Source: Verrucomicrobiia bacterium
GTDB lineage: Bacteria; Verrucomicrobiota; Verrucomicrobiia; Verrucomicrobiales; DEV007
Length of the DNA: 62,805 bases
Direction of reading: 5' to 3'
Assembly (NCBI GenBank): GCA_020439925.1
Contig: JAGRPC010000023.1
Span: forward strand, 1-62,805
Part shown: positions 9,614-26,975 of the stretch, one piece after another
Numbering within the stretch: position 1 is the first letter of the stretch
Layout: each line of letters begins with the position of its first letter
Translations under genes and position numbers: made by a program
The notes under the pieces: model-generated
Told to the model about the DNA's origin: nothing
What the model saw: the letters and a program-made list of their open reading frames with translations, nothing else
The model's database searches: none

Positions 9614-9949
9614 TTATAAAATCGGAATCGACCAATATTGGTTTACAATTTCTTTCGAAGTTCTAATTGAGTCGTTATTCAATCGATCGGAATCAACAAA
9701 CAAATATATTTCGAGGGTCCTGAACTGAGACGTTAGACATGAATTTACTCGATTCTTTAAAAGTCTTTCATCTTTCGTGGCTAGGTTACGAACGCCTTCC
9801 AGCTTAATTGCGACTTCAGAGACCAATGCGGCTTGCTCAATGAGTGCATTCTGAACTGGATGCAACCACCTTAGGAACACAAATACGGCCAAAAGCAATG
9901 AAATCTGACCGATTACCAACCCTTTATAAAAATCCAAAGTCACTTTCAT
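9614..9949 (-). CDS. Putative immunity protein for Rhs module 1 (N-terminal TM)
   Basis: AT-rich small ORF immediately downstream of the toxin CT. Confidence 0.65.
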   Translation of the reverse strand: MKVTLDFYKGLVIGQISLLLAVFVFLRWLHPVQNALIEQAALVSEVAIKLEGVRNLATKDERLLKNRVNSCLTSQFRTLEIYLFVDSDRLNNDSIRTSKEIVNQYWSIPIL

Positions 9950-9955
9950 TATCTA

Positions 9956-11746
9956 CTAACTGTCGCACGGTGATCCACCGGACCATTCTCCCTCTGCAGG
10001 CGCCTTCGGTCCAAGTTTTCTCATTATTTCACCCAATCTTCCGGCTAAGCTTTCCGATGGAGCGAAAGGTTTAGTCATTTTTACGGCATCACCTATCTTG
10101 TCTCCCAATAAATCCGCAAAACCCGTAGGAAGCGGTAGATCAGTTCCTACACTAGGAATTGCCCAATTTTCATCTTCGGTTGGAACTTCGTATTCATATT
10201 CATATTGCCTCTGTCCTGATCTATAACAAATCTTTCCATCGCAAATGCATTTAATTTCCGTCGTTGTCGTCCATTTGAATATGACTTTTTCAATTGCAAT
10301 AATTTGAGTTCCTCTTTGAGGTTTACCTCCTTGCGAGACTGGATCAATTTCCAGCTCCCATTTACCATCACTAGTTTTCCAAAACGGCGGCCCATCTTCT
10401 TCGCAGGTCAATCCGAGGTAGTCAAGATCGTTTACTCCGCCATTCCCTCCGTATCTATACAAATTGAGCCCTCCCCGCTCCCCTATCGGATCCCGATTGA
10501 TCCATCTTCCCAGCATTGGAACGTAGAAACGGTAGCCGTAGTTATACCAACCGGTCTCCCCGTCCCGGAACTGTCCTTGGAACCCGAAGTCCCAGGCGTA
10601 GCCGGAGGTGGGGCGCGGCGAAAAGTCCGACGCCATGATCCGGCGGACGCCGAAGGCCGAGTAGGCGTAGCGCTCCAGAACAGTCCCGGAGGTGTTCAAC
10701 ACCGAGATCCCGTTGAAGTAGTCCATCGTCGCGTAGAGACGCTCATCGAGCGTGCCGTTGCCATCGGTGTCACGGTCACGGAGGACCAGCTCATCCCGGT
10801 GGCCGGGACGTTCACCCCACAGGTAGGAGCGGGCGGCGGAAGTTGCGGAGCCGACCCGCTCTTCCATGGGCTTCCAGCGGTCGCCCCAGTAGGTGTGGGT
10901 GGTTACTTCGTCGACGGTTCTCGTAATGCGGCGGCTAAGGCCGTCATATGAATACTCTCCGACAAGATGAATCCAATCGTCTCCTTCTGTTTCAACACGA
11001 ACGATTCGATTCCAGGCGTCCCAAATCACGTTGAGGAAAGGTTCACCGTTCACACTCTCGCCCGGAGGAAGTTTCGTCGCATTGCCGGCTCGGTCATAGG
11101 AGAGCAGGGCGCTGCTCCCGTCGATCTGGGTGAGCTGGTTGTCCTGGTTGTTCGAACGGCTCTGATCGAGCACAACTGAACCGTTCGCGTTTTTGCGATA
11201 ACCCAGCCAGTTGCCGGTGGGATCGTATTCAAAATCCTCCGTCTCCCCCGGAACACCCCCGACGGTGGTGCGGTTGGTGTTCAAGGTTCCCACCGCGTCC
11301 CGGATGACCTGATACAGGCCGTCGTAGCCGTAGGACTCGTCCTGGCCGCTTGCTGCCACGAGGTTCTTCTTCCAGGTCCGATTGGAGGCTTCGTTGTAGC
11401 CCCATTGCCAGGCATCGATGGGCGTGCCGGTGGAACTGTTCTGCCAGCGCATCTCCTGCACCCGCCCGAAGTGGTCATAGCCGTCGTAGGGATCGCCAGA
11501 GTCACCTTCGCTGCCTCCGCCGGGACGGATCATGGACATTTCGACTCCGGGTTGGGGGTAAGCGACCTTCACGAAGCGGCCCAGCCCTGCTCTCGAATAC
11601 TCGACCTTGTTGCCGCCCTCCCCAGAGATCGCGGCTGACTTCACCAGCCCGAAGAGGTCGTCGATGCTGTCGCTCGAGCCGTAGCCGAGGTTCACCACCC
11701 GGCCGTTGGGGTATGTCATCGAGGTTCGACGTGCCGTGTTGCTCAT
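9956..11746 (-). CDS. Rhs C-terminal module 1 (YD repeats + RHS core + Cys-containing CT)
   Basis: Starts MSNTARR; RWINRDPIG...LDYLGL autoproteolysis signature; unique AT-rich CT. Confidence 0.9.
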   Translation of the reverse strand: MSNTARRTSMTYPNGRVVNLGYGSSDSIDDLFGLVKSAAISGEGGNKVEYSRAGLGRFVKVAYPQPGVEMSMIRPGGGSEGDSGDPYDGYDHFGRVQEMRWQNSSTGTPIDAWQWGYNEASNRTWKKNLVAASGQDESYGYDGLYQVIRDAVGTLNTNRTTVGGVPGETEDFEYDPTGNWLGYRKNANGSVVLDQSRSNNQDNQLTQIDGSSALLSYDRAGNATKLPPGESVNGEPFLNVIWDAWNRIVRVETEGDDWIHLVGEYSYDGLSRRITRTVDEVTTHTYWGDRWKPMEERVGSATSAARSYLWGERPGHRDELVLRDRDTDGNGTLDERLYATMDYFNGISVLNTSGTVLERYAYSAFGVRRIMASDFSPRPTSGYAWDFGFQGQFRDGETGWYNYGYRFYVPMLGRWINRDPIGERGGLNLYRYGGNGGVNDLDYLGLTCEEDGPPFWKTSDGKWELEIDPVSQGGKPQRGTQIIAIEKVIFKWTTTTEIKCICDGKICYRSGQRQYEYEYEVPTEDENWAIPSVGTDLPLPTGFADLLGDKIGDAVKMTKPFAPSESLAGRLGEIMRKLGPKAPAEGEWSGGSPCDS

Positions 11747-11855
11747 GGGGTCTGGTTTCGTGAACAAGGGCGGAGTTGCCCGTCGTGAAGGTTTGTGGAT
11801 TCAACTTTCTAGGACGGCCGCCATCTTCGTCTATTTGGACTGCCTCCGTCTATTT

Positions 11856-12344
11856 CTACCATGTGAACGGCTCCCTCAAACTTCGTAGAAACCTTTCTTG
11901 GTACTCATTCTCATTCATTCTCATTTCGATGATCATGTCTCCTTCAACGACACTCACTTGATACGAAATAAGGTTTATTCCATTTAATAGTGCCTCAAGT
12001 TTATCACCAAACTCATCGTCGAATAAAACTTTTTCACCTGTTTTTGGGGCCGTCGCAGAAACTTTAGTTGTGCCTGGTTCATTCAAAAGATCCATAACAA
12101 CATAATCTTCTATCTTGAAATTCACTTCGCCGTTCAGCTTTTTTTCAAGTGATTCGAGCACATCTGACAGGGTCATTCGGGGAATCGCTTCCGACATCAA
12201 CCGGCGTCGAGACTTCTCGAGATTTGAAACCGATCTGAATGTGTAAAGAATATGAAATTCACACAAAAGCCAAACTGCAATGAAAATAGAAATGAGGATT
12301 GATGAAGTCCATGCAAATAAATTTCTTGCCGCCGATTTAATCAT
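11856..12344 (-). CDS. Putative immunity protein for Rhs module 2 (N-terminal TM)
   Basis: ATGA overlap with toxin stop; AT-rich. Confidence 0.7.
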   Translation of the reverse strand: MIKSAARNLFAWTSSILISIFIAVWLLCEFHILYTFRSVSNLEKSRRRLMSEAIPRMTLSDVLESLEKKLNGEVNFKIEDYVVMDLLNEPGTTKVSATAPKTGEKVLFDDEFGDKLEALLNGINLISYQVSVVEGDMIIEMRMNENEYQERFLRSLREPFTW

Positions 12345-14152
12345 TTCCCCAAGCAATCATCGTTCGCTTTGTCTTGTGCCTCTTTGATTGCTTTCGCGAG
12401 TGCTCGGCTGAGAGAAGCCCATCCGTCTTCAAGATTAAGCCGTGGACTCTGGATATTTTGCGTTTTCGTTGGTCCAGGACGTCCGCATTCGCAGCATTGA
12501 TATTCTTGTTTTCCGCTCCAATGTACAAACTTGAATCCACCTGGACCGGAGTATGCGTCGGCTGCCTCCTTCAATTTGTCAACTATCACATCGCCAGCGG
12601 CTTTACCAGTTCCCGAGGCACTTCCTGCGGCGTTGGAACCGGCTCCGGAGAGGAAATCTACAACACTCCCTCCAGCGGCGGGACCGAAGTTTCCGAGCGC
12701 CTCCATTAGTTCAGTCATAAGTTCAGCGATTTCCTTGTCGTTTTTTCCGACCGCGCTTTCTCCTTCTGGTAGCAACGCAATATCAGATTGACCTCCCATC
12801 AAGATTGACTCTCCGTTGCTGCAAAGACCTAGGTAGTCCAAACGATTTATCGGTTTATTGTATGTGAATCGATACAGATTGAACCCACCTAGTTCTTTGA
12901 TTGGATCCCTGTTGATCCACCTCCCCACCAGAGGAACAAATACCCGATAGCCGTAGTTATACCATCCGTTCGCCTCATCCCGGATCTGACCTTGGAACCC
13001 GAAGTCCCAGTCGATGTCCGAGGTGGTCCTCGGCGTGTAGTTTGGTGCCATGACCCGACGTACCCCGAACGCACTGTAGGCGTAGCGCTCCTGCACCACT
13101 CCGGACGTGTTCAGCACCGCCGTCCCGTTGAAGTAGTCCATTGTCGCGAAGAGTCGCTCGTCGAGGCTCCCGTCGCCATTGGTGTCCCGGTCCCGCAGGA
13201 CCAGCTCGTCGCGGTGGCCGGGGCGCTCGCCCCAGAGGTAGGAGCGGGAAGCGGCGGTCGCGGAAGCCACCCGCTCTTCCAAGGGCTTCCAACGGTCGCT
13301 CCAATAGGTGTGGGTCACCGTCCCTCCGGACTCCTTCGTGATCCGGCGAGTCAAGCCATCGTAGGCGTTCTTCTGCACGCTGGTCCCGTTTTCGTCCTTC
13401 ACCTCGACGAGCCGGTTCCACGCGTCCCAGGTGTTCGCGAAATGCTTCGTCCAGTCGCCTCCGGTTCCTGGACGAGTCTTCGTCGCGTTCCCGGCTCGGT
13501 CGTATTCGACGCCTTGGCTCGATCCGTCGATCTGCGTCAACTGGTTGTCCTGATTGTTTGAGCGGGTCCGGTCCAGGACGGGTGCGCCGTTCTCGTCCTT
13601 GCGGTAGCCCAGCCAGTTCCCGGTGGGGTCGTAGGTAAAATCCTCCTCCTCACTGGGCACTCCGCCGATGGCGGTGCGGTTGGTGTTCAAGGTTCCCACG
13701 GCGTCACGGACGACCTGATAGAGGCCGTCGTAGCCGTAGGCTTCGTCTTGCCCGGAGGAAGCAACGAGGTTCTTCTTCCACGTCCGATTGGAAGCCTCGT
13801 TGAAGCCCCATTGCCAGGCATCGATGGGGGTGCCCGTGAAACTGCTCTGCCAGCGCATCTCCTGCACCCGCCCGAAGCGGTCGTAACCGTCGTAGGGGTC
13901 GCCCGAATCACCCTCCAATCCCCCTCCGGGGCGGATCATGCTCATCTCCACAGCAGGCTGCGGGTAGGCGATCTTGACGAATCGGCCCAGGCCCGCACGG
14001 GTATATTCCACCTTGTTGCCACTCTCGCCGGAGATCGCCGCGCTCTTCACGAGGCTGAAGAGATCGTCAATCGATCCCGTCGAGCCATAGTCCAGGTTCA
14101 CCACCCGGCCATTCGGGTAGGTCAGCGATGTGCGCCGGGACGTGTTGCTCAT
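12341..14152 (-). CDS. Rhs C-terminal module 2 (Gly/Ala-rich helical CT)
   Basis: Starts MSNTSRR; RDPIKE...LDYLGL; unique CT. Confidence 0.9.
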   Translation of the reverse strand: MSNTSRRTSLTYPNGRVVNLDYGSTGSIDDLFSLVKSAAISGESGNKVEYTRAGLGRFVKIAYPQPAVEMSMIRPGGGLEGDSGDPYDGYDRFGRVQEMRWQSSFTGTPIDAWQWGFNEASNRTWKKNLVASSGQDEAYGYDGLYQVVRDAVGTLNTNRTAIGGVPSEEEDFTYDPTGNWLGYRKDENGAPVLDRTRSNNQDNQLTQIDGSSQGVEYDRAGNATKTRPGTGGDWTKHFANTWDAWNRLVEVKDENGTSVQKNAYDGLTRRITKESGGTVTHTYWSDRWKPLEERVASATAASRSYLWGERPGHRDELVLRDRDTNGDGSLDERLFATMDYFNGTAVLNTSGVVQERYAYSAFGVRRVMAPNYTPRTTSDIDWDFGFQGQIRDEANGWYNYGYRVFVPLVGRWINRDPIKELGGFNLYRFTYNKPINRLDYLGLCSNGESILMGGQSDIALLPEGESAVGKNDKEIAELMTELMEALGNFGPAAGGSVVDFLSGAGSNAAGSASGTGKAAGDVIVDKLKEAADAYSGPGGFKFVHWSGKQEYQCCECGRPGPTKTQNIQSPRLNLEDGWASLSRALAKAIKEAQDKANDDCLGK

Positions 14153-14240
14153 GAGTTCAGTGAGATGCGTAGCTGAAGCTAGAATCGGAATCGGTATCTG
14201 GACCACTCGTGATGTTCTTCGTATAGGGAGATTGCTAGTA

Positions 14241-14621
14241 TCATCGATTTCTGTTCTCGCTAATTATTTCAATCGCCTCAATTAAACTAATATCGTCAGT
14301 CAGCTTAGACCTGGCTTGCGACTGAACCCAATCAAATCTGAAGTCGAATTCGTAGTTAGAAATTGCTCGAAGCTCGTTTCCAAGGAGATCATTCGGACGC
14401 AAAAATCCAATTTTTGTCGATGCTTGATTAGATACCTCTTTCAAGAGGCCGATTAGCCAAGATTTTTGGTATCTCCCCATTGGATCAAAGAGTTTTATGA
14501 TTTCGTCATCAGTCAAACATGCTCGATGGCCTAGAATTCGCTTCCTAGAACGTCGGAGATTTACTTGCAACCATACCCCAAACATGGCTAAAGCTACGAA
14601 AATCACCAAGACGAAAATCAT
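14241..14621 (-). CDS. Putative immunity protein for Rhs module 3 (N-terminal TM)
   Basis: MIFVLVIFVALAMFGVWL TM helix then basic stretch; directly downstream of CT. Confidence 0.7.
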   Translation of the reverse strand: MIFVLVIFVALAMFGVWLQVNLRRSRKRILGHRACLTDDEIIKLFDPMGRYQKSWLIGLLKEVSNQASTKIGFLRPNDLLGNELRAISNYEFDFRFDWVQSQARSKLTDDISLIEAIEIISENRNR

Positions 14622-14629
14622 GACTGCCG

Positions 14630-16465
14630 TCAGAATAATGTTGGATCAAAGACGCAAATATGAGCACAGGATATCGCCAAGCCCTCCAGGTATCCAGCGG
14701 ATCCTGCTGCAAGAGCCGCGCCAAGGGGCGCAGCGGCGCGACCAAACAAACGCATCCCCCTGCCTCCGCCAAATGACATCATACTTGGAATAGTGGTCCA
14801 AATAGGGCCAGAAATTCCCCCCTTAGAAACTCCTTTGCCAAATAATGGCTTAACAGGGAGTGGTGCGACAAGAAGCGAAACACCTAGTGCCCCCATAGCA
14901 ATATCAGCTCTGTGATAAGCCATGCAGTTTATAAAACACTCCGAAAATGGAGAGTGCCCACCTCCGCCGCCACCTCCAAGTGGCTTGCCACCACCTCTAC
15001 CACCACCGGGCTTGCCACCACCGCCGCAATTCATACTCAACTTAGCATTTCGGCAATCCGCAAGACATTCCTCCCTGTCTCCGGGCTGAGGAAAGCATCC
15101 TTGGCATTGATCGTCGCATGGAACGCATGTCCAAAGTCCGAAGCGGTCGAACTTGTTGGTGGAATCATTATACGAGAAAGTATAAAGACCAACAATGCTC
15201 CCGTCTTCTCCAATCGGATCTCTGTTGATCCACCTGCCGAGAAGCGGGACGTAGAACCTATAGCCGTAGTTGCTCCACCCCGTCTCATTATCGCGGAACT
15301 GCCCCTGGAATCCGAAGTCCCAAGCATGGCTGGAGGTGCTTCGCGGAGTGAAGTCCGCCGCCATGATCCAACGGACGCCGAAGGCCGAGTAGGCGTAGCG
15401 TTCCAGGATCGTTCCCGAGGTGTTCAAGATGGCCGTCCCGTTGAAGTAGTCCATCGTCACGTAGAGACGCTCGTCGAGACTCCCGTTGCCGTCGGTGTCC
15501 CGGTCGCGGAGGATCAGCTCGTCCCGGTGCCCGGGACGCTCACCCCACAGGTAGGAGCGGGCAGCGGTGGTTGCGGAGCCAATCCGCTCCTCCAAGGGCT
15601 TCCAACGGTCACTCCAGTAGGTGTGGGTCACCACACTGGAAGCCTCTTTCGTGATCCGGCGAGAGAGGCCATCATAGGCGTTCTTCTGCACGCTCGCCCC
15701 AGTCTCATCCTTGACCTCCACGAGCCGGTTCCACGCGTCCCATACCGGCTGGTAGCTTTTGCTCCAGTCTCCGTTCGTTCCAGGCGCGGTCTTCGTCGCA
15801 TTGCCGGCTCGGTCATAGGAGAGCAGGATGCTGCTCCCGTCGATCTCGGTGAGCTGGTTGTCCTGGTTGTTGGAACGGGTTTGATTGATGATCATCGAAC
15901 CATTCGCGTCCCGGCGATATCCCAGCCAGTTGCCGGTGGGATCGTAGGCGAAGTCCTCTTCTTCTCCCGGAACACCCCCAATGGCGGTGCGGTTGGTGTT
16001 CAAGGTTCCCACCGCGTCCCGGATGACCTGATACAGGCCGTCGTAGCCGTAGGACTCGTCCTGGCCGCTTGCTGCCACGAGGTTCTTCTTCCACGTCCGA
16101 TTGGATGCTTCGTTGTAGCCCCATTGCCACGCATCGATGGGCGTGCCGGTGGAACTGCTCTGCCAGCGCATCTCCTGTACCCGCCCGAAGCGGTCGTAAC
16201 CGTCGTAGGGATCGCCGGAGTCGCCCTCCGATTCACCCCCGGGGGGGATCATGCTCATCTCCACGCCGGGCTGGGGATAGGAGATTTTCACGAACCGGCC
16301 CAGGCCGACCCGGGTGTAATCCACCTTGTTTCCGCTCTCCCCGGAGATGGCGGCGGACTTCACCAGGCTGAAAAGGTCGTCGATGCTGTCGCTCGACCCG
16401 TAGCCCAAGTTCACCACACGCCCGTTGGGGTAGGTCACTGAAGTGCGACGGGAAGTGTTGCTCAT
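14630..16465 (-). CDS. Rhs C-terminal module 3 (Cys-rich + hydrophobic, possible membrane-active CT)
   Basis: Starts MSNTSRR; RDPIGE...FDRFGL; CT has Gly linker and hydrophobic small-residue helices. Confidence 0.9.
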   Translation of the reverse strand: MSNTSRRTSVTYPNGRVVNLGYGSSDSIDDLFSLVKSAAISGESGNKVDYTRVGLGRFVKISYPQPGVEMSMIPPGGESEGDSGDPYDGYDRFGRVQEMRWQSSSTGTPIDAWQWGYNEASNRTWKKNLVAASGQDESYGYDGLYQVIRDAVGTLNTNRTAIGGVPGEEEDFAYDPTGNWLGYRRDANGSMIINQTRSNNQDNQLTEIDGSSILLSYDRAGNATKTAPGTNGDWSKSYQPVWDAWNRLVEVKDETGASVQKNAYDGLSRRITKEASSVVTHTYWSDRWKPLEERIGSATTAARSYLWGERPGHRDELILRDRDTDGNGSLDERLYVTMDYFNGTAILNTSGTILERYAYSAFGVRWIMAADFTPRSTSSHAWDFGFQGQFRDNETGWSNYGYRFYVPLLGRWINRDPIGEDGSIVGLYTFSYNDSTNKFDRFGLWTCVPCDDQCQGCFPQPGDREECLADCRNAKLSMNCGGGGKPGGGRGGGKPLGGGGGGGHSPFSECFINCMAYHRADIAMGALGVSLLVAPLPVKPLFGKGVSKGGISGPIWTTIPSMMSFGGGRGMRLFGRAAAPLGAALAAGSAGYLEGLAISCAHICVFDPTLF

Positions 16466-16630
16466 GGGGCAGGGTTGGTGGATTAAGGATAAGGAAAAAC
16501 AGGTGCCAACGATATTGGAGCATGAAACCGTAACAGCAGTTTCGAATTGATGAGTAGTTGGTTTGGGCGCGGCCAAATTTACATGCCATGAATATGCGAC
16601 AGATCACTGTTGAGGGCGCACTTTATATCT

Positions 16631-17080
16631 TTACTGATTGATGGTTTCATCTTCAAGCACCTTCCAAACGCGTTCGAACATCGCGGCAGCTGTACGATTC
16701 TCACCTGATAGTTCCTTGGTGCCGACATTATTCAATCTTACGTTCATGCCACGCCATTCAATAATTCTGAATTCACCGTCCGGAACACTTTGGCCGATTT
16801 CAAACGAATTCCCTTTACTAAAGAGATTGTCAAGCAATGCGGCTAATTCTGCGGCTAACTCAGCCCTGACGGTCACCACTATAGGTGTTGAATTTCGATG
16901 TTTAAATTCACCTTCCAGCGAATGGAGATTAAGATAGGCATCCCATGAATCTGGATATGAAACTTGCGAGAATTGAACGGTGTCAGGACGCCTTATATGC
17001 ATGCAAGATTGAAATGGCAGAGTTAACAAAATCGTCAACGCTAAGGCGGCATGAGAGGGAATTCTTACAAGATATGTCAT
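16631..17080 (-). CDS. Putative immunity lipoprotein for Rhs module 4
   Basis: Hydrophobic leader ending FQSC (lipobox-like); downstream of CT. Confidence 0.65.
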   Translation of the reverse strand: MTYLVRIPSHAALALTILLTLPFQSCMHIRRPDTVQFSQVSYPDSWDAYLNLHSLEGEFKHRNSTPIVVTVRAELAAELAALLDNLFSKGNSFEIGQSVPDGEFRIIEWRGMNVRLNNVGTKELSGENRTAAAMFERVWKVLEDETINQ

Positions 17081-17137: not shown

Positions 17138-18910
17138 TCACCCTCTTCTTTGCATCCATCCGTGTGTCTTCCATCCGTAGCCTTTGAGTTGATCGAGACG
17201 TTCATCGATCTCATCTTCACATCGCGGATCGCCCTCACACTCCTTTTTGCATTTCTTCAAGCATTGTCTCTCAGCCATCGCTGCAGCTCCTTCAGAAATT
17301 TTTGGGCTTTTTCCTTTCTTCCAACCCGGTCGCTCCAAACCGTCGCCCGAACAATCAACATCATCATGATGCTTGTCTTCATGTTCCTTCACACATCGCT
17401 GAATGCATGATGTTCCTTTTGTTGGGGGGCCTTGCTGACCTGGTCCCACGTTCGGAATCCAGCTGCAACTGTATTTTTGGCCACCGCAGCAAATGACTCC
17501 TCCTCCATCATTTCCAGCAAGCGAAGCGTCCTCAGCTGCCTTGCAAGGATCGCAACAATCAGGCGGGCCATCGGTTGGTTCTAATCCTAGAAAATCGGCA
17601 ACATCTAAGGCTGCATTACTGACAAACGTATAAAGGTTCTCCCCTCCACTTTCCCCGATGGGATCCCGATTGATCCACCTGCCAAGGAGCGGGACGTAGA
17701 ACCGGTAGCCGTAGTTGTACCAGCCCGTCTCCGCGTCCCGAAACTGCCCCTGGAAGCCGAAGTCCCAAGCATGGCTGGAGGTGCTTCGCGGGGAGAAGTC
17801 CGCCGCCATGATCCGGCGGACGCCGAAGGCTGAGTAGGCGTAACGTTCCATCACGGTTCCAGAGGCATTCAGAACCGCCGTCCCGTTGAAGTAGTCCATC
17901 GTCGCGTAGAGACGCTCGTCGAGCGTTCCGTTGCCGTCGGTGTCCCGGTCCCGCAGGACCAGGTCGTCCCGGTGCCCGGGACGCTCGCCCCAGAGGTAGG
18001 AGCGGGCGGCTGAGGTCGATACGCCCGTCCGGTCCTCGAGCGGCTTCCAACGGTCGCTCCAGTAGGTGTGGGTCACTACGCTTGAGGCCTCCTTGGTGAT
18101 GCGCCGGGTCAGTCCGTCGTAAGCATTCTTCTGCACGGATGCCCCAGTCTCGTCCTTGACCTCCACCAGCCGGTTCCACGCGTCCCACACGGGCTGGTAG
18201 CTCTTGCTCCAGTCTCCGTTCGTTCCGGGTGCGGTCTTCGTCGCATTGCCGGCACGGTCGTAGGAGAGCAGGGAACTGCTCCCGTCGATCTGGGTCAACT
18301 GGTTGTCCTGGTTGTTGGAGCGGCTCTGATCGAGGACGACTGAACCGTTCATATCCTTCCGGTAGCCCAGCCAGTTGCCGGATGGATCGTATTCAAAATC
18401 CTCCTCCTCACCGGGAACGCCCCCGACGGCGGTGCGGTTCGTGTTCAAGGTTCCCACCGCATCCCGGATCACCTGATACAGGCCGTCGTAGCCGTAGGCT
18501 TCATCCTGACCGCTGGCAGCAACGAGGTTCTTCTTCCACGTCCGGTTGGACGCTTCGTTGTAGCCCCACTGCCAGGCGTCAATGGCCGTGCCGCTGGAGC
18601 TACTTTGCCAGCGCATCTCCTGCACCCGGCTGAAGCGGTCATAGCCGTCGTAAAGGTCTCCGGAGTCTCCCATGCTTCCGCCACCGGGGCGGATCATGCT
18701 CATCTCCACCCCAGGCTGCGGGTAGGCGATCTTGACGAATCGGCCCAGGCCTGCACGGGTGTATTCCACCTTGGTGCCGCTCTCGCCGGAAATCGCAGCG
18801 CTCTTCACGAGGCTGAAGAGGTCGTCAAGCGATCCGGTCGAGCCATAGCCCAGATTCACCACCCGGCCGTTCGGGTAGGTCATCGATGTGCGCCTTGCGG
18901 TGTTACTCAT
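17138..18910 (-). CDS. Rhs C-terminal module 4 (Cys-rich CT with HExxH zincin-like motif)
   Basis: Starts MSNTARR; RDPIGE...ADFLGL; HEDKH plus downstream SEGAA. Confidence 0.9.
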   Translation of the reverse strand: MSNTARRTSMTYPNGRVVNLGYGSTGSLDDLFSLVKSAAISGESGTKVEYTRAGLGRFVKIAYPQPGVEMSMIRPGGGSMGDSGDLYDGYDRFSRVQEMRWQSSSSGTAIDAWQWGYNEASNRTWKKNLVAASGQDEAYGYDGLYQVIRDAVGTLNTNRTAVGGVPGEEEDFEYDPSGNWLGYRKDMNGSVVLDQSRSNNQDNQLTQIDGSSSLLSYDRAGNATKTAPGTNGDWSKSYQPVWDAWNRLVEVKDETGASVQKNAYDGLTRRITKEASSVVTHTYWSDRWKPLEDRTGVSTSAARSYLWGERPGHRDDLVLRDRDTDGNGTLDERLYATMDYFNGTAVLNASGTVMERYAYSAFGVRRIMAADFSPRSTSSHAWDFGFQGQFRDAETGWYNYGYRFYVPLLGRWINRDPIGESGGENLYTFVSNAALDVADFLGLEPTDGPPDCCDPCKAAEDASLAGNDGGGVICCGGQKYSCSWIPNVGPGQQGPPTKGTSCIQRCVKEHEDKHHDDVDCSGDGLERPGWKKGKSPKISEGAAAMAERQCLKKCKKECEGDPRCEDEIDERLDQLKGYGWKTHGWMQRRG

Positions 18911-18958
18911 GGGGTTGGATAATCGCTCTGGATAGATGCTCGATTGTTGAGGATGATG

Positions 18959-19456
18959 TTATCTCGATAAAGTTGAATTCCGCAAATCACCGTCGAGGAA
19001 GAGGCCTCCATTCGCCGAGGTGAAGGCAAAGCGGGTCAGCTTGCCGGTTGCCTTGACCTTCATCCCGGCCCGCGCCTTGTCGAGAAACACTTGCTCGGTA
19101 GGCGGCAGCATCACCCAAAGGCGGACAGTAAAGTCGAGGCCCGAGACATCGACGGGCATGTCGCGCACGCCGATGCGGATCTTGTCGGTGTTGTCCGCCT
19201 CGCCGGCCCAGGGCGCCCACTCGCCGAGTTCGACTTCAATGGTGACCGTTTTACCCACCGCGTCGCGCTGGAGGATCTCGTTGGCCGTGCGGCGGGCCGC
19301 TTCGATTTGGCTGGGTTGTTTCAGATCTTTGGTCACCTCGCGGGGGAGGAGGGCGATGACGTCCTTCAGCGAGGCGAAGTCCGGTTTGGCGGGGGCTTGG
19401 GCGTGGAGGATCGGGGCAAGGAGGAGAAAGAGGATGGTGAGGGTCACCGCGTTCAT
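18959..19456 (-). CDS. Secreted hypothetical protein inserted in the Rhs array
   Basis: MNAVTLTILFLLLAPILHA-Q signal peptide; GC-rich unlike neighbouring immunity genes. Confidence 0.7.
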   Translation of the reverse strand: MNAVTLTILFLLLAPILHAQAPAKPDFASLKDVIALLPREVTKDLKQPSQIEAARRTANEILQRDAVGKTVTIEVELGEWAPWAGEADNTDKIRIGVRDMPVDVSGLDFTVRLWVMLPPTEQVFLDKARAGMKVKATGKLTRFAFTSANGGLFLDGDLRNSTLSR

Positions 19457-19533
19457 AATGTTGGGTGTTTGTGAGAGTCTAGAAATGTTGCAAAACCCCA
19501 GAATCTTCGAAGGCAAACGGAGGCAACAGTCTC

Positions 19534-19896
19534 TTACGAGTCAAAAAATTCATTTGATGCAATACGTAGAGCCTCCTGAAATGCCTTTTGGAGAAGTGGG
19601 GGGGACGTCAATAGCTTTCGCAAATCAAAGATCTTGTCTCCTTCAATCAAACGACTATTCGAATCGTCAATTAACACAAAATCCCACCTCTTAGAATGGT
19701 TCTTGTCATAAGTGTTCCTCAATTCAACAGCCGTGGGTGAAATTTTGGTGTGGCTATATCGCGAGGAGTAAAACCTGCCGTCATTGTCTTGCATCAAGAT
19801 AATCACAAAATCTTTATCAAACTTGATATAAGTTTGAACCTGATCCAAGCCCGAGTGAACCCAATCCCCAAGAAGTTTCATTATATCTATTCCCAC
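19534..19896 (-). CDS. Putative immunity protein for Rhs module 5
   Basis: Overlaps toxin 3' end; AT-rich, beta-rich 120 aa. Confidence 0.65.
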   Translation of the reverse strand: MGIDIMKLLGDWVHSGLDQVQTYIKFDKDFVIILMQDNDGRFYSSRYSHTKISPTAVELRNTYDKNHSKRWDFVLIDDSNSRLIEGDKIFDLRKLLTSPPLLQKAFQEALRIASNEFFDS

Positions 19897-21614
19897 CCAG
19901 GAATCTTTAAAGGATTGGGATAGTAATTTGGATCGTCTGGATCAGGTTCACCCTGTCTCCCTGGCGGAACCTCAGTACCAACTGGAGTGCCGTTATGACA
20001 CGGAACACTATACGAGATGCCGCTCGGTCTGCACACTACGCGACAGAGTCCGCCTCCCGGCCCATCACCGAAAACTTTTTCAACCGTGCATTTTTCCTTT
20101 TCCGTTTGAGACTGCGCTCGAGTTCGCGATTCTGTCCTAGAACGAGTCTCCTCTCCAATAGGGCAACAAACGCCGCCGCGCAGCACATATCTTCGCCAAG
20201 TGTCAATTATTAGCCAAATGCTTATGACTCCAAGAGTAATAATTAAGTATTGCTCAATCTTTATTAGAATTAGAGGATTGCAAAAAAGACCGAAACGATC
20301 TAGCTCATTACTTGGATTGTTTTTCCCGAAACTGTAGAGATTTATCCCATCACGCTCCTCAATAATATCCCGATTGATCCACCTGCCGAGGAGCGGAACG
20401 TAGAAGCGGTATCCGTAGTTGGACCACCCGGTCTCGGAGTCGCGGAACTGGCCCTGGTAGCCGAAGTCCCAGGCGTAGTTCGAAGTGCTCCTCGGAGTGA
20501 AGTCCGCCGCCATGATGCGGCGGACGCCGAAGGCGCTGTAGGCGTAGCGCTCCTGCACGACTCCGGAGGTGTTCAGCACCGCAGTGCCGTTGAAGTAGTC
20601 CATCGTCGCGTAGAGACGCTCGTCGAGCGTCCCGTTGCCGTCGGTGTCCCGGTCCCGCAGGACCAGCTCGTCACGATGGCCGGGGCGCTCCCCCCACAGG
20701 TAGGAACGGGAAGCGGTGGTCGCGGAGCCGATTCGCTCCTCCAAAGGCTTCCACCGGTCGCTCCAGTAAGTATGGGTCACCACACTGGCGGATTCCTTGG
20801 TAAGGCGACGGCTCAGGCCGTCGTAGGCATTCTTCTGCACGGTGGTCCCGTTCTCGTCCTTCACCTCGACGAGCCGGTTCCACGCGTCCCACACGGGCTG
20901 GTAGCTCTTGCTCCAGTCGCCGTTCGTTCCGGGGGCAGTCTTCGTCGCATTGCCGGCACGGTCGTAGGAGAGCAGGGCGCTGCTCCCGTCGATCTGGGTG
21001 AGCTGGTTGTCCTGGTTGTTCGAACGGCTCTGATCGAGGACAGCTGAACCGTTCGCGTCCTTACGATAGCCCAGCCAGTTACCGGTGGGATCGTAGGTGA
21101 AGTCCTCTTCTTCTCCCGGAACACCCCCGACGGCGGTGCGGTTCGTATTCAAAGTGCCCACCGCGTCCAGGATGACCTGATAGAGCCCGTCGTAGCCGTA
21201 AGCTTCATCTTGTCCACTGGCGGCAACGAGGTTCTTCTTCCACGTCCGGTTGGACGCTTCGTTGTAGCCCCACTGCCAAGCATCGATGGGGGTTCCGGCG
21301 GAACTGTTCTGCCAGCGCATCTCCTGCACCCGGCTGAAGCGGTCGTATCCGTCGTAAGGATCGCCCGAGTCGCCCATGCTGCCTCCCCCGGGGCGGGTCA
21401 TGCTCATCTCCACAGCGGGCTGCGGGTAGGCGATCTTGATGTATCGGCCCAAGCCTGCCCGGGTGTATTCCACCTTGTTGCCACTCTCGCCGGAGATCGC
21501 CGCGCTCTTCACGAGGCTGAAGAGATCGTCAATCCATCCCGTCGAGCCATAGTCCAGGTTCACCACCCGGCCATTCGGGTAGGTCAGCGATGTGCGCCGG
21601 GACGTGTTGCTCAT
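19887..21614 (-). CDS. Rhs C-terminal module 5 (proximal; CT with TM helix and Cys cluster)
   Basis: ATG overlaps the TGA of the large Rhs ORF (ATGA); RDIIEE...LDRFGL. Confidence 0.9.
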   Translation of the reverse strand: MSNTSRRTSLTYPNGRVVNLDYGSTGWIDDLFSLVKSAAISGESGNKVEYTRAGLGRYIKIAYPQPAVEMSMTRPGGGSMGDSGDPYDGYDRFSRVQEMRWQNSSAGTPIDAWQWGYNEASNRTWKKNLVAASGQDEAYGYDGLYQVILDAVGTLNTNRTAVGGVPGEEEDFTYDPTGNWLGYRKDANGSAVLDQSRSNNQDNQLTQIDGSSALLSYDRAGNATKTAPGTNGDWSKSYQPVWDAWNRLVEVKDENGTTVQKNAYDGLSRRLTKESASVVTHTYWSDRWKPLEERIGSATTASRSYLWGERPGHRDELVLRDRDTDGNGTLDERLYATMDYFNGTAVLNTSGVVQERYAYSAFGVRRIMAADFTPRSTSNYAWDFGYQGQFRDSETGWSNYGYRFYVPLLGRWINRDIIEERDGINLYSFGKNNPSNELDRFGLFCNPLILIKIEQYLIITLGVISIWLIIDTWRRYVLRGGVCCPIGEETRSRTESRTRAQSQTEKEKCTVEKVFGDGPGGGLCRVVCRPSGISYSVPCHNGTPVGTEVPPGRQGEPDPDDPNYYPNPLKIPGWE

Positions 21615-24600
21615 GGGGTGGCATAGGCGTAGCTCACTTCAGGTGTCGTTCCCGGGACCACCGCCCCGCTGTGTGATTGACGGTCCTTGGTCATTTGTCC
21701 CAAGCCGTCGTAGGCATAAGAGACCTCGTTGAGAATGCTGCCAGAGCCAGGGCTCGCATGGCTGTAACTGCTCACTTTGGAAGTGAGGGCTCGCTTGGTC
21801 TCGTAGGTGATGGAAATGCGTTTGACGGTCTGGTCGATGCCGGTCCCAAAGGCGATGATCCGGTCGTGGAGGAGCCGCCCCAGCTTGTCACGGTCGTAGG
21901 CGTGAACGGTCTCGTTGGGATCTTTCGTTGTGACGACTTCCCCTTGGCGGTTGTAGGTATGTTCGGTCCGCTCGTAGATCCCATCCGGGCCGTTGCCGAG
22001 CGGGGCGTTGCTGTCGTCGCTCTCGGGGTAGATCTTCGCCCGCAGAAGATGACCGGTGGCCACGGCGGAATCGGCCAAGGTCGTCCCGTAGACCCAGCGC
22101 GTCACCTGGTCGCCGGTCACGTCGTTGACGAGGGTAAGCGTTTCCAGTCCGCCGCCCGGGTGATAGCAGAAGCGAGTGGTGCGGTTCACGTCGGCCGCCG
22201 GCCCCGCGCCTTCCTTGAAGTTTTCGACGGTTTCGATTTCACGCCCGAGCGCATCGCGCTTCCAACGGGTCTCGGTGCCCATCGGGTCGATCATCGCCCC
22301 TGGCTCCCCGGTGCTGGCATGCCGGGTGATCGTGACGAGGACTTCCTCACTCGTCGAGGGTGGAACCTCGGGGCGTACGAGAACGGATCCTCCATTCGTG
22401 CCGTAATCGGCGGAGGCGATCTCCCGGCCGATGGCGTCCTGCCACCAACACGCATAGGTGCGCCTTGCCCGGGGCTGGGATCCGGTAGGGCCGTTGAGCG
22501 GCCCGGTTCCGGTGGCATCGTGGAAACGCTGCCAGGAGGCGCTTTGAATCGCTTGGCCGGCCGCGTTGTAGACGGTCTCACTTTGCTCGACCACCGTGTC
22601 GGCGGAAGGATCGTTGTTATTGCTGCCACCCGATGGGTTGCAGGCCGTGTAGCGGCGGAGGGGACGGTCGAAGGCGTCGTAGGTGCCCTTCACAAATCCT
22701 TCGTTGCCTTGGAAAGTTTCTTTCAAGACAATGCCCGACGGATCCCGCCACCGCTGCGCGACCAAGGCATTGCCCACCGCACCGGTCGTGGGATCGACCG
22801 AATAGGTCTCGTTCTTGTAATCGCGACCGCGGGCGTCGAAGTAGACCTTGCTACGAGCGGTGAGATTGGCGGAGGCAACGGCGGTGTGATAGGAATCGAC
22901 CTGGGTGGCCTGACCGAGATTGTCGAGGGTGTAGCGAACCAGGAAGGTATTGGTCCCGTCGCTGCGGGTTTCTCCGATGAGTCGGTCGCGGAAGTCGTAT
23001 TCGAAAGATTCCGAACGGTCATTGGCACTGCTGGAATCCACCGGCCGGACCACCGATGTAAGATTGCTATTGCCTCCGTCCGTTCCACCGTCGTAGACGT
23101 TGGTGGTGACCAGAACCATGTTGTTGCCGCCCGCCCCGCCTCCGGTGGGGTCAGTGTTGGTGGCGCCGGTGTCATTGGTGCCGATCCAAACGGAAGCGAC
23201 GAGGCCGCGGGCGTCGATGACGCTGCGGTTGATGGTTCCTCCGGGAGAGGCGACCCGGTTTTCCCGGCCCATCGCGTCGCGGCCATAACGGGTCGCGTAA
23301 TAGTTGGTGTTCTCGAATCCTTCGCCGGTCACGGGAATGACATGCCAGACACGGCTCTCATCCCGGTAATCGGCGGCGTTGTAGAACTCACGCCGCCAGC
23401 GCTTCCAGGTTGCTTGCGGGAATACCTCGGACGGCGAGATAGGACCGCATTCGCAAGCACGGGATGCTTCGATGGATTGGAGTTCGCGATTGGAAAAATC
23501 AAGACGACGAAGCTTCACCGTCCCGAGGGTGTAGAAGCCACCCGAAGTGGACCCGCCCTTGGCGCTGCGGATTTCGCGGACTCCGTCCAGATAACACGAA
23601 TAATCAGCCCGCCTTGTCAGAACGGGCTCGACCGCCCCCGACTCCTTCTTGGTCGGGACGAGATGTGCAGGCCCTAGAACCAAGGTGGCCCGCCCCAGCA
23701 GATCCGACTGGCAGTCGGTGCGCCGGCTCGAACCGAATCCGCTCGCCGTGGTCCACCCGGCTGGGACTCCTTCCAAGAGCGAGGTGTCCGCGTCGTCAAT
23801 CCGAAACCGAAGGGCTCCGGTGAGCCGGTCATGAACGGCGTAGTCGATCCGGCCGCGCTCGTTCTTGCGCCACTGGGCATTGCCGTAGTCATCGAAGACG
23901 GTGACCCGCGAGGTCGTGGCCCCGGTGCCGTTCTCTCCGGTGCCGACAACGGGAGGAGTGACGGTATGTTGGAGCACGGCAAAAGTCGCACCGCGCCAAG
24001 TGTAGGTGTTGGAAGTCGTGGCGGGATTGCTGCCTCCACCCGCCGTGTCCAGGTAGACTTTTGAATCGGCGGTCTTGTAGATCGTATCCGTCCCGACCGT
24101 CCGGGCGACATAGGTGACCTCCCGCTGCTTGATGGCCGTGCCCGAAGAGCCTTCCTTGACATTGGTCAACTTGAGATAACCCGGAGCCGAACCCGCTCCA
24201 CCGCCGCTCGTGGGGTAATAATCTTTGGTCTCGATGAGCCCGGCGCTGGCCTTCAAGGTAACAGTGAAATTCTGCGATGCAGTCGAGGGTTCGGTGAATG
24301 ACGCGATGGCCGAGGAGGTGGCGTGGAGGGTCTCTCGAAACTCGGAATTGTATTCCCAGTATTCCGGCCACTCGTCGGTTCCCTTTTTGAGGATTTTCAA
24401 CACCGGCTGATTGGTATTGTTGTAGTAGGTCGTCACGGTGACGCTGTCCGGCTGAGTCTCGATCGAACGCCGCCACCAGTTTCGGCCAGAGGCATTATCG
24501 CTACTGAGGAGGGAGAAGGTGAAGGTTTGGGTGCCGCCATGGCGGACAGATCGAGTCACCCGATTCTCAGCATCGTATTCGAAGTAGTCAGAAGCGTATC

Positions 24601-25438
24601 CGGCCAGCGTCGCATCGCTGACGGATGTCAGATTCAAAGGATCAAGTCCCATCTCCTGCATCCTCGCCCACCCGTCCGAGTCGAGCACGTAACGTAGACC
24701 GTGTTTGAACCCGATGGAGCTGGCCGTCTTGTAATAGCGATAATAAGCCCGTGCGCTGGTCGCCCAACTCGCTGAACTCTCTTCCCAAACCTCGGCAACC
24801 GTGCTCTGAAGATCATTGAGGCTTCCGGCGCTGGTGGAGCCGTCATAGTAGGAGAAGCGCCACTGCTTCAAGGGGAGCTCGACGCCCCCACGGACGAGAC
24901 GCTTTTCGACATTCAGGATCAAGCCCTGGTGAACACCGCTGGTCGCGTAGGTGTAGAGCAGGGCGGCGCTCTCTCCTGAAACCGGGTCGATGCGAGTCAG
25001 AGACTCCATCCGTTGCGAGATATTGTAGGCAGCGACGGTGATGATTCCATCACTCGCGGTTTCCGTTTTGAGCCTGCCCTTTAGAGCCGTGACCGCGTTC
25101 GGACCATAAAACGTCCAGACTTCTCCACGTGGGCTGGCAACCCGGTAGTCACCGTTTCCAAGAATCGTCAGAACCCTTAGCGTTCCCGATTGCCCCCAGT
25201 AGGCTCCTGACTGCCAAAGCCAGGAAGTCGCCTGCCCTTGCACCATTGTCACCTCTTGAGGTTTGCCATCCACGGTGATGTTGCTGAACCAAAGGTAGGG
25301 CAATGAGCGCACGACCCAGCTATTTCCGTTGATCCCGCCTTCATTGCTCGTCATCCGCGAGACATATCGAAGGTTGTGATCGAAACCGGTTGACAGCCCC
25401 CGGCCTTGGGTATCAGGACGACTTGTCTGGAGTTGCAT
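21611..25438 (-). CDS. Rhs/YD-repeat N-terminal shell protein lacking core and toxin
   Basis: 1275 aa with YD repeats (YDAENRV, RDAMGR, YDFRDRL, YDGLGQ); DUF6531-like start; ends VSYAYATP-stop. Confidence 0.9.
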   Translation of the reverse strand: MQLQTSRPDTQGRGLSTGFDHNLRYVSRMTSNEGGINGNSWVVRSLPYLWFSNITVDGKPQEVTMVQGQATSWLWQSGAYWGQSGTLRVLTILGNGDYRVASPRGEVWTFYGPNAVTALKGRLKTETASDGIITVAAYNISQRMESLTRIDPVSGESAALLYTYATSGVHQGLILNVEKRLVRGGVELPLKQWRFSYYDGSTSAGSLNDLQSTVAEVWEESSASWATSARAYYRYYKTASSIGFKHGLRYVLDSDGWARMQEMGLDPLNLTSVSDATLAGYASDYFEYDAENRVTRSVRHGGTQTFTFSLLSSDNASGRNWWRRSIETQPDSVTVTTYYNNTNQPVLKILKKGTDEWPEYWEYNSEFRETLHATSSAIASFTEPSTASQNFTVTLKASAGLIETKDYYPTSGGGAGSAPGYLKLTNVKEGSSGTAIKQREVTYVARTVGTDTIYKTADSKVYLDTAGGGSNPATTSNTYTWRGATFAVLQHTVTPPVVGTGENGTGATTSRVTVFDDYGNAQWRKNERGRIDYAVHDRLTGALRFRIDDADTSLLEGVPAGWTTASGFGSSRRTDCQSDLLGRATLVLGPAHLVPTKKESGAVEPVLTRRADYSCYLDGVREIRSAKGGSTSGGFYTLGTVKLRRLDFSNRELQSIEASRACECGPISPSEVFPQATWKRWRREFYNAADYRDESRVWHVIPVTGEGFENTNYYATRYGRDAMGRENRVASPGGTINRSVIDARGLVASVWIGTNDTGATNTDPTGGGAGGNNMVLVTTNVYDGGTDGGNSNLTSVVRPVDSSSANDRSESFEYDFRDRLIGETRSDGTNTFLVRYTLDNLGQATQVDSYHTAVASANLTARSKVYFDARGRDYKNETYSVDPTTGAVGNALVAQRWRDPSGIVLKETFQGNEGFVKGTYDAFDRPLRRYTACNPSGGSNNNDPSADTVVEQSETVYNAAGQAIQSASWQRFHDATGTGPLNGPTGSQPRARRTYACWWQDAIGREIASADYGTNGGSVLVRPEVPPSTSEEVLVTITRHASTGEPGAMIDPMGTETRWKRDALGREIETVENFKEGAGPAADVNRTTRFCYHPGGGLETLTLVNDVTGDQVTRWVYGTTLADSAVATGHLLRAKIYPESDDSNAPLGNGPDGIYERTEHTYNRQGEVVTTKDPNETVHAYDRDKLGRLLHDRIIAFGTGIDQTVKRISITYETKRALTSKVSSYSHASPGSGSILNEVSYAYDGLGQMTKDRQSHSGAVVPGTTPEVSYAYATP

Positions 25439-26930: not shown

Positions 26931-26975
26931 CATTCGAACAAAGGCATTCGCAAATCTCAACGATAAGTCGCAATA

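What the first reader, a model, noticed from the sequence alone, without database searches (positions are those of the whole stretch)
9614..25438. Split Rhs system: one N-terminal shell gene and five C-terminal toxin modules all starting at the same Met
Seen: the 1275-aa Rhs ORF stops at YAYATP-TGA with no core or toxin, and its stop overlaps the ATG (ATGA) of module 5. All five modules (ATG at 21614, 18910, 16465, 14152, 11746) are intact ORFs beginning MSNT(S/A)RRTS, each with roughly 440 aa of conserved repeats/core, a DxxGL cleavage signature, a different CT and a downstream small gene. Established: classic orphan rhs-CT cassettes are usually 5'-truncated at variable points and activated by recombination, whereas Tc toxins build their Rhs cocoon from two polypeptides (TcB + TcC). 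Inference: this may be a two-chain Rhs in which one shell pairs in trans with any of five co-expressed toxin halves, giving a toxin cocktail without rearrangement.
Basis: partly seen in the sequence, partly recalled or inferred. Interest (0 to 1): 0.9.

Follow-up and report, generated by a model that had tools for sequence, protein, structure and literature searches.

The report
Two-chain Rhs with interchangeable toxin halves
A bacterial toxin-carrier (Rhs) gene is stably split into one shell gene and five separately starting genes with different putative toxin tips; relatives share the split and other lineages split at other positions, which likely lets one shell be completed by any of several toxins without rearranging DNA.

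Summary
Observation confirmed. The 1275-aa shell ORF ends at YAYATP-TGA and overlaps the ATG of the first of five intact modules (about 443-aa core, DxxGL, unrelated tips).

The split is not an error or a fresh frameshift. Of the best 120 shell homologues, 12 end at the same proline. Junction DNA differs between lineages (overlap -4; gaps +5, +6, +12 nt), and the shell is under purifying selection (dN/dS 0.15-0.19, dS up to 1.7). The closest fused relatives read straight through.

The cut lies in a predicted beta-hairpin loop, and a shell/module model scores ipSAE 0.89 against 0.01 for the best control, probably helped by likeness to solved Rhs structures.

New here: other homologues are split at other loops, about +105 residues (Verrucomicrobiales loci, own Met-start arrays) and probably about +65. 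Two-chain Rhs therefore probably arose repeatedly. It works like TcB plus several TcC but is not a Tc toxin.

Not shown: translation of modules 1-4, toxicity and the export route (no T6SS markers found). Tips also move between slots, so recombination continues. Eight literature searches found no description.

The parts
25505..25684 (-). 59-aa Pro/Gly/Cys/acidic leader ORF. A similar low-complexity leader is the in-frame N-terminus of the Rhs in distant fused relatives, but a separate ORF in this clade
   Evidence: window, L039, L040, L048, L042, L043 separate; L051, L053, L071 in frame
21611..25438 (-). Shell gene, 1275 aa of YD/RHS repeats, no Rhs-associated core, no tip, no PAAR match
   Evidence: AF2 model of residues 1-750 pLDDT 93, best fold hits are Rhs shells; dN/dS 0.15-0.19
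21611..21614 (-). Split site A: stop/start overlap (ATGA), in the loop of a predicted beta-hairpin
19887..21614 (-). Module 5 (first slot), 575 aa: 443-aa core ending in DRFGL, then a 132-aa tip with 7 Cys and a hydrophobic N-terminal segment
19534..19896 (-). 120-aa ORF (GTG start), putative immunity gene of module 5, no hydrophobic segment
   Evidence: position; no Pfam or NCBIfam hit
18959..19456 (-). 165-aa ORF with a signal-peptide-like N-terminus. Not tied to one tip: two copies precede different modules in L039
   Evidence: dN/dS about 0.12; 19 homologues; no Pfam hit for two homologues
17138..18910 (-). Module 4, 590 aa; 147-aa tip with 13 Cys and an HExxH motif
16631..17080 (-). 149-aa putative immunity gene of module 4, lipoprotein-signal-like N-terminus
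   Evidence: signal judged by eye and by hydropathy
14630..16465 (-). Module 3, 611 aa; 167-aa tip with 11 Cys and Gly-rich hydrophobic segments. The same tip is in the first slot of L039
14241..14621 (-). 126-aa putative immunity gene of module 3, N-terminal hydrophobic segment; travels with the module-3 tip in L039
12341..14152 (-). Module 2, 603 aa; 160-aa tip with 5 Cys. First 150 nt are 99% identical to module 5
11856..12344 (-). Putative immunity gene of module 2 (ATG overlaps the module-2 stop; about 162 aa), N-terminal hydrophobic segment
9956..11746 (-). Module 1, 596 aa; 150-aa tip with 5 Cys
9614..9949 (-). 111-aa putative immunity gene of module 1, N-terminal hydrophobic segment

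Best explanation
This locus is an Rhs polymorphic-toxin system whose carrier is encoded as two chains, a 1275-aa shell and any of five modules that each start with their own ATG, and the shell likely assembles with each module into a closed Rhs cocoon. Shown: the split, its conservation at one residue with varying junction DNA, purifying selection on both halves, and intact cleavage aspartates in all five modules. Predicted: the cut lies in a beta-hairpin loop; the module's first strand (residues 7-13) pairs with the shell's last strand (1268-1272) inside an interface of about 290 contacts. Inferred: the locus is read as an operon; every module is translated from its ATG; the core cleaves itself at DxxGL and the tip is packaged, as in other Rhs and Tc proteins; the Cys-rich tips act at a competitor's envelope and the adjacent, mostly membrane-anchored small proteins give immunity. 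One shell gene would thus field a mixture of up to five toxins, as YenB does with three TcC proteins, while recombination between cores still reshuffles the array over time. The export route is unknown; T6SS and TcA markers were not found.
For: (1) Of the best 120 shell homologues, 12 end at the same proline (P0001-P0012; the 10 full-length ones aligned are 65-96% identical to the window's shell); the next-closest two read through. (2) Junctions differ: gap -4 (window, L039, L077), +5 with TAA (L040), +6 in frame (L048, L118, L119), and a stop plus 12-nt spacer in an X16 contig (joint 16467-21622). (3) Shell dN/dS is 0.15-0.19 among split members with dS 0.14-1.7; the window's module cores have dN/dS 0.13-0.23 at dS 0.6-0.97. 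(4) In the AF2 model of a natural fused relative (pLDDT 90), sites A, B and C all fall in loops between strands. (5) Complex of shell 726-1275 with module-5 core: ipSAE 0.89, best control 0.01; runs agree in at least 97% of contacts; partner pLDDT at least 89. The mark was reached by 116 of 157 solved and 2 of 215 mismatched pairs. A pass is expected for halves of a split gene and may come from likeness to solved Rhs/Tc shells. (6) Interface residues are identical in all five modules at 67 of 89 positions against 223 of 354 elsewhere (Fisher p 0.03, related sequences). (7) In site-A loci, 17 of 18 cassettes not directly behind a shell begin at the split-site position with a Met; in site-B loci, 10 of 11 (counted by hand). 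Extra copies in fused loci start anywhere from about -430 to +380, as described for classic orphans (PMC2935791, passages). (8) The split recurs. Of the 120 shell homologues, 13 end at about +105 and 2 at about +65. Of the best 150 core representatives, residue 1 maps to site A in 10, to +105-108 in 40 and to +59-67 in 16. (9) Precedent: YenB packages three TcC proteins, including an orphan (PMC11067744, passages).
Against: No translation, binding or toxicity data. Only module 5 and the last 550 residues of the shell were modelled. Tips move between slots (L039) and modules 5 and 2 share a near-identical first 150 nt, so recombination alone could use the array. Several downstream cassettes keep a shell tail plus its stop (L048 second module, L113, L116, L118, L119), so their ATG may simply ride along with displaced DNA. 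Some Met-start cassettes are decayed (L039 31-codon fragment; L040:7409 lacks DxxGL; L118 second module). In the fused locus L053 both orphans also start beside site A. G022 keeps one module and only 38 codons of shell. The start-context score is weak: window modules rank at the 27th-68th percentile of 333 reference starts, and the genome shows no Shine-Dalgarno enrichment. None of the window's five tips has a Pfam or NCBIfam match; of 62 homologous modules scanned, 3 had a tip match (Ntox16, Peptidase_M76, a sub-threshold PLA2).
Confidence: 0.62

Rival explanations
1. Two-chain Rhs, but only the first-slot module (translationally coupled to the shell's stop) is made in useful amounts. Modules 1-4 are reserve cassettes brought into the first slot by recombination between cores, as for classic orphans; their ATG is a by-product of the unit being displaced whole.
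For: The window's module-3 tip and small gene occupy the first slot in L039, whose shell is 96% identical. Mosaic DNA identity among cores. Shell tails are kept on some downstream cassettes. Decayed cassettes exist. Orphan activation by recombination is established in Salmonella (PMC3967940, passages). Purifying selection on cores is expected under this reading too.
Against: Displacement predicts core fragments of variable length, mostly without a start (PMC2935791, PMC3967940, passages). That is what fused loci of this family show, whereas 27 of 29 cassettes in split loci begin at the split-site Met, at two different sites. All four downstream modules in the window lack any shell tail and keep both cleavage aspartates.
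Confidence: 0.27
2. The modules are made and act without the shell (for example as cell-internal toxin-antitoxin units or free half-cocoons), and the shell has another role.
For: Salmonella rhs tips are expressed from internal promoters as type II toxin-antitoxin modules (PMC7043789, passages). G022 has a module with only a 38-codon shell remnant. No export machinery was identified.
Against: The Salmonella starts lie just upstream of the cleavage motif (transcription start 89 nt upstream), not 440 codons upstream. The shell is kept at a fixed length and end residue under selection. The large modelled interface is conserved. Of the five immunity-position genes, four have N-terminal hydrophobic segments, which fits envelope targets better than cytoplasmic ones.
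Confidence: 0.07
3. One polypeptide is made by programmed frameshifting or stop read-through at the junction.
For: The window's junction has a C-run before the stop, and a -1 shift would join the frames.
Against: Site-A junctions occur in two frames with TGA or TAA and gaps of -4, +5, +6 and +12. Site-B junctions have gaps of 14-100 nt in all three frames, four of them with a further in-frame stop. No single recoding event fits.
Confidence: 0.03
4. Assembly error or a recently broken pseudogene.
For: The genome is a fragmented assembly (607 contigs, N50 14.9 kb), and the closest fused relatives are continuous.
Against: Independent contigs bridge the junction without an indel; 12 homologue clusters end at the same residue; the shell is intact at dS up to 1.7 with dN/dS below 0.2.
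Confidence: 0.01

Closest known systems
Tc/ABC toxin BC component (YenB with YenC1/C2/C3; TcdB2 with TccC)
   Same: An Rhs cocoon built from two chains; the second chain carries the Rhs-associated core, cleavage motif and variable tip; several second chains serve one first chain (PMC11067744, passages). Module cores align with YenC2, RHS2 and TccC3, and BC structures are among the fold hits.
   Different: Different cut: module residue 121 aligns with TcC residue 351, so site A is roughly 230 residues later; the constant part is about 443 aa against about 680. No SpvB or TcdB_toxin_mid Pfam match in the shell. TcA_TcB_BD was not found in the genome (its control rang nowhere). Each module has a putative immunity gene. 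The direct relatives are single-chain Rhs, so the split is independent.
Single-chain Rhs with orphan rhs-CT/immunity arrays (C-terminal displacement)
   Same: Tandem core+tip cassettes with small downstream genes; tips exchanged between slots; best fold hits are T6SS Rhs cores such as 8qja, Tse15 and RhsA.
   Different: Classic orphans have cores of variable length and usually lack initiation signals (PMC2935791, PMC3967940, passages; PMC3150448 for cdiA-CT). Here there is no full-length gene at all, and nearly every cassette is a whole ORF starting at one Met. PAAR, VgrG, Hcp and TssC were not found in the genome.
Salmonella internal-promoter Rhs toxin-antitoxin modules
   Same: Rhs tips expressed without recombination (PMC7043789, passages).
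   Different: There the start is close to the cleavage motif and the product is a free tip. Here the product would be 440 aa of cocoon wall plus tip, complementary to a separate shell.
Fused Rhs of Verrucomicrobiota and Planctomycetota (for example P0013, P0014; about 1800-2200 aa)
   Same: The direct homologues: 62-63% identity over the shell and 72% over the core for the closest; same order of parts.
   Different: Continuous ORF across site A; their extra cassettes start at scattered positions.

Membership tests
Rhs / YD-repeat polymorphic toxin | YD/RHS repeats forming a beta-sheet shell | tested here: met
   PF05593 and TIGR01643; AF2 models with best Foldseek hits to Rhs cores, E 1e-38 and 1e-19
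Rhs / YD-repeat polymorphic toxin | Rhs-associated core with two cleavage aspartates (RD...DxxGL) | tested here: met
   TIGR03696 above cut-off in 5 of 5 modules; both aspartates in 5 of 5 window modules and 15 of 16 split modules aligned
Rhs / YD-repeat polymorphic toxin | Variable C-terminal tip followed by a small cognate gene | tested here: met
   five unrelated tips, each with a small ORF; the module-3 tip and its small gene move together
Rhs / YD-repeat polymorphic toxin | Tip is toxic and neutralised by the small gene | not testable with these tools
   no family match for the five tips; needs an assay
Canonical single-chain Rhs | Shell, core and tip on one ORF | tested here: not met
   conserved stop and new start at site A
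T6SS-delivered Rhs | PAAR/VgrG link and a T6SS in the genome | tested here: not met
   PF05488, PF05954, PF05638 and PF05943 not found in G000, which is 93% complete; controls rang. Absence from an incomplete genome is not proof
Tc/ABC toxin BC component | Cocoon made of two separately encoded chains | tested here: inconclusive
   gene split shown; binding only modelled
Tc/ABC toxin BC component | B chain with SpvB / TcdB_toxin_mid domains | tested here: not met
   no such Pfam hit at E up to 0.01; a shell profile finds no PDB chain by sequence
Tc/ABC toxin BC component | C chain with a constant part of about 680 aa, 851-1050 aa in total (PMC11067744, PMC7861908) | tested here: not met
   constant part about 443 aa; modules 575-611 aa
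Tc/ABC toxin BC component | TcA translocator encoded in the genome | tested here: inconclusive
   PF18276 not found, but no control genome rang; no TcA-like Pfam hit among the window ORFs scanned
Orphan rhs-CT cassettes | Core fragments of variable length behind a full-length gene | tested here: not met
   no full-length gene; 5 of 5 modules start at the same residue
Orphan rhs-CT cassettes | Usually lack translation initiation signals | tested here: inconclusive
   all have an ATG in a context ordinary for this genome, but initiation was not measured
Orphan rhs-CT cassettes | Tips exchanged by recombination between cores | tested here: met
   the same tip occupies different slots in the window and L039; mosaic cores

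The most novel reading that the evidence does not exclude
Rhs cocoons of Verrucomicrobiota, and probably Planctomycetota, have repeatedly and independently been cut into a constant shell chain and exchangeable toxin-bearing chains at three or more different beta-hairpin loops. Each cut turns a silent orphan array into a set of co-expressed warheads: a protein-level, recombination-free way to diversify antibacterial toxins, converging on the Tc B+C design and exported by a route that is neither T6SS nor TcA.
Probability: 0.5. Interest if true: 0.88.

Novelty: new variant of a known kind. Interest (0 to 1): 0.78.

Why it matters
[quoted passage not shown] A split carrier offers a third answer that is directly testable: a shell gene plus five natural partner genes in one locus. 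The repeated, independent cuts show where an Rhs cocoon tolerates being made from two chains, and give natural parallels for how the Tc B/C division could have arisen from a single-chain ancestor. They also mean that many Rhs 'fragments' or 'pseudogenes' in Verrucomicrobia annotations are probably working genes. The locus sits on a mobile element and dozens of different, mostly unclassified tips circulate on these modules.

Tried and rejected
Sequencing error: rejected. In one search the X1 contig 21586-26500 has no differences but only 28 letters on the module side, and may come from the source sample, so it was not counted as a bridge. Frameshift or read-through: rejected by junction diversity.

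Single origin of split A: unresolved. The fused P0013/P0014 fall inside the same 100/100 clade as 11 split shells; monophyly of the split rows was neither recovered (0% of 200 bootstrap trees) nor rejected (p-AU 0.075). Re-fusion or several cuts at site A are possible. Site-B rows need at least 5 changes on the 136-row quick tree, so gain and loss cannot be ordered. Site C rests on protein ends and starts only; no DNA locus was seen.

Expression: contigs from two RNA-library runs of related strains cover the 3' half of the shell, the junction and parts of module cores, and one covers 16550-16697. No silent control stretch was laid and DNA can be present, so this is not used as evidence of transcription. 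The promoter/terminator scan was at or near chance (6 against 7.4; 25 against 17.3 +/- 3.9). The hairpin in site-B spacers is not significant (z -0.18, -1.76, -0.68). The start-context matrix is weak and partly reflects coding versus non-coding composition.

The count of 84 Met-starts among 99 close module homologues (15 called later, none extended upstream) is biased: the query was residues 1-200, lengths were limited to 316-1007 aa, 5 rows are the window's own and many are near-duplicates. It is used only as a sign of abundance. dN/dS of cores does not separate the best explanation from the first rival.

Export: no TssC, VgrG, PAAR, Hcp, phage sheath or TcA_TcB_BD match in G000; the model of shell residues 1-750 is all shell-like beta-sheet with no recognisable targeting domain. 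The protein-atlas look-up gave no answer, so the shell N-terminus and the tips were not compared there. Shell and module profiles are not similar to each other. The tips were not folded.

Literature: eight full-text searches, including 'split Rhs' (0 papers) and Rhs with PVC superphylum (0 papers), found no description. The library lacks most subscription papers, and no supplements were read. Earlier findings of this scan: nothing on this locus or sequence.


Full report
Observation. The window's minus strand carries a 59-aa leader ORF, a 1275-aa YD-repeat ORF (21611-25438) and five modules, each followed by a small ORF. The shell ends in YAYATP and its TGA overlaps the ATG of module 5. The modules are 575-611 aa, 75-87% identical over about 443 aa, end their core in DxxGL and diverge completely afterwards. 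All five match the Rhs-associated core model; the shell does not. Homology between modules begins at the ATG. These queries found no other copy in the 93% complete genome. Genomes of the same genus carry record titles in Verrucomicrobiales. The contig also encodes RepA, ParA, a TrwC relaxase, a coupling-protein-like ORF, ArdC and integrases, so it is a plasmid or integrated mobile element.

Is the split real? A one-base loss would explain the junction on paper, so this was tested first. Of the best 120 of 543 shell homologues, the top 12 all end at the same proline and the next two read through into the core. Junction DNA is not the same across lineages: a -4 overlap in the window, L039 and L077; TAA plus 5 nt in L040; a stop plus 6 nt in frame in L048, L118 and L119; and a stop plus 12 nt in one X16 contig. 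Contigs of related strains in 4 of 4 runs from 3 studies bridge the window's junction with no indel listed there. The shell has dN/dS 0.15-0.19 between split members with dS up to 1.7. An error, a young pseudogene and a single recoding signal are all excluded or very unlikely.

Structure. An AF2 model of residues 500-1699 of a natural fused relative (64 sequences, pLDDT 90, pTM 0.84) is a continuous beta shell whose best matches are T6SS Rhs cores, followed by a teneurin-like protein, Tc BC complexes and teneurins. Site A lies in the loop between strands 748-753 and 764-768 of that model. The two-chain model of shell 726-1275 with the module-5 core scored ipSAE 0.89 against 0.01 for the best of three controls, with about 290 contacts, at least 97% agreement between runs and partner pLDDT of at least 89; 116 of 157 solved and 2 of 215 mismatched pairs reach that mark. 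The strands flanking the cut pair with each other. Halves of a split gene tend to pass by likeness to solved shells, so this shows compatibility, not binding. Interface positions are somewhat more conserved among the five modules than other positions (67 of 89 against 223 of 354). Both cleavage aspartates are kept in all five; self-cleavage and packaging are inferred from other Rhs and Tc proteins (PMC11067744, passages).

The split recurs elsewhere. Mapping the ends of the 120 shell homologues shows three clusters: 12 at site A, 2 at about +65 and 13 at about +105; most others are full length. A profile search of 50% representatives gives the mirror image: of the best 150, residue 1 maps to site A in 10, to +59-67 in 16 and to +105-108 in 40; 68 extend upstream and 16 start elsewhere. 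For site B the DNA was seen: L066, L067, L070, L113 and L116 have a shell stop, a 14-100 nt spacer in any frame and a new ATG, and L112 has five Met-start modules in a row plus one truncated. Sites B and C also fall in loops of the model. In a 136-row tree, site-A rows lie in one 100-supported clade with five fused rows, site-B rows in another mixed with fused rows (at least 5 changes), and site-C rows in a third. The order of gains and losses is not resolved. The leader is a further cut: in-frame in distant fused relatives, separate in this clade and its fused sisters.

Are the downstream modules used? In site-A loci 17 of 18 cassettes not directly behind a shell begin at the split-site position with a Met, and in site-B loci 10 of 11 (hand count; duplicate records merged). 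In the 22 fused loci examined, the extra copies start at scattered positions from about -430 to +380, the pattern described for enterobacterial orphans, where fragments vary in length and mostly lack starts (PMC2935791, PMC3967940, PMC3150448; passages read). That contrast, at two different cut sites, is the main argument for selection on translatable modules. The start contexts are ordinary for this genome, which shows no Shine-Dalgarno enrichment. Against: tips change slots (the window's module-3 tip is first in L039), cores are mosaic, some cassettes keep a shell tail and its stop, a few are decayed, and one fused locus has both orphans starting beside site A. No expression data settle it (one search is not controlled). 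I put the cocktail reading at 0.62 and first-slot-only use at 0.27.

Cargo and export. The five tips are Cys-rich (5-13 Cys), two have hydrophobic segments and one has HExxH; four of the five immunity-position genes have an N-terminal hydrophobic or lipoprotein-like segment. This suggests envelope-acting toxins, by inference only; no family matches them. Among 62 homologous modules scanned, three tips matched Ntox16, Peptidase_M76 or, weakly, PLA2. TssC, VgrG, PAAR, Hcp, phage sheath and TcA_TcB_BD were not found in the genome (the last without a ringing control), and the shell's first 750 residues model as shell only. The export route is open.

Comparison and novelty. It works like the Tc B+C cocoon, where one B chain takes three C chains (PMC11067744, passages), but fails Tc membership on B-chain domains and C-chain size (PMC7861908, passages), and its cut is roughly 230 residues later. 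It is an Rhs polymorphic toxin by repeats, core and tip/small-gene layout, but neither single-chain nor a classic orphan array. It differs from Salmonella internal expression, which starts next to the cleavage motif (PMC7043789, passages). PMC3482391 (table passages) and bioRxiv 10.64898/2026.07.13.738213 (abstract) added nothing on split carriers. Eight searches found no report; closed-access papers and supplements were not seen. Verdict: a new variant of a known kind, real and recurrent, with the key functional claim untested. Interest 0.78.

Noticed in passing
L066:10874-10977, L067, L070:10876-10973, L112, L113, L116; proteins P0024-P0026, P0032, P0034, P0037, P0043, P0053, P0059, P0073, P0076, P0078, P0090: Second Rhs split (site B, about +105 aa) with its own Met-start arrays. 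Two start types are seen (M[SP]T[TL]LE[QR] and MKDRIQY), possibly separate origins.
   Followed up: yes
P0060, P0063 (ends); P0303, P0312, P0314 and others (starts): Probable third split (site C, about +65 aa): two shells end there and 11 representatives start MKLTYIKQ-like. No DNA locus was seen.
   Followed up: partly
window 25926-28640 (+), 8837-9508 (+); L039, L043, L061, L065, L071: Glycosyltransferase, methyltransferase and sulfotransferase genes flank these Rhs loci repeatedly, split or fused. They might modify the Pro/Thr/Ser-rich leader, or only share an island.
   Followed up: partly
window 18959-19456 (-); L039:13018-13521 and 16036-16533: A 165-aa protein with a signal-peptide-like N-terminus and no known family recurs in front of different modules; 19 homologues; under purifying selection. 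Possibly an accessory or broad immunity factor.
   Followed up: partly
L040:246-1325; L048:6289-6696; window 25505-25684: The detached leader varies widely: 59 aa in the window, 135 aa Pro/Thr-rich in L048, 359 aa with a LamG lectin-like domain in L040. It could be a variable targeting piece.
   Followed up: partly
window 29848-62772 and 107-7009: The contig is a mobile element with defence cargo: ABC-3C genes (29848-31445), type I methylase (1144-2649), restriction helicase (40351-43650), Fic protein, ArdC, TrwC relaxase, RepA, ParA and integrase-family genes.
   Followed up: no
L053:6279 and 9019: Behind a fused main gene, both orphans start at the same point beside site A with a Met a few codons on; a possible intermediate on the way to the split.
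   Followed up: no
L077 (G022:C177 about 26261-26392): One intact module preceded by only the last 38 codons of a shell and the same stop/start overlap; no full shell was found in that genome with this query.
   Followed up: partly
G000 whole genome: No Shine-Dalgarno enrichment before 333 reference starts (19% against 17% for internal ATGs); C at position -1 in half of them.
   Followed up: no
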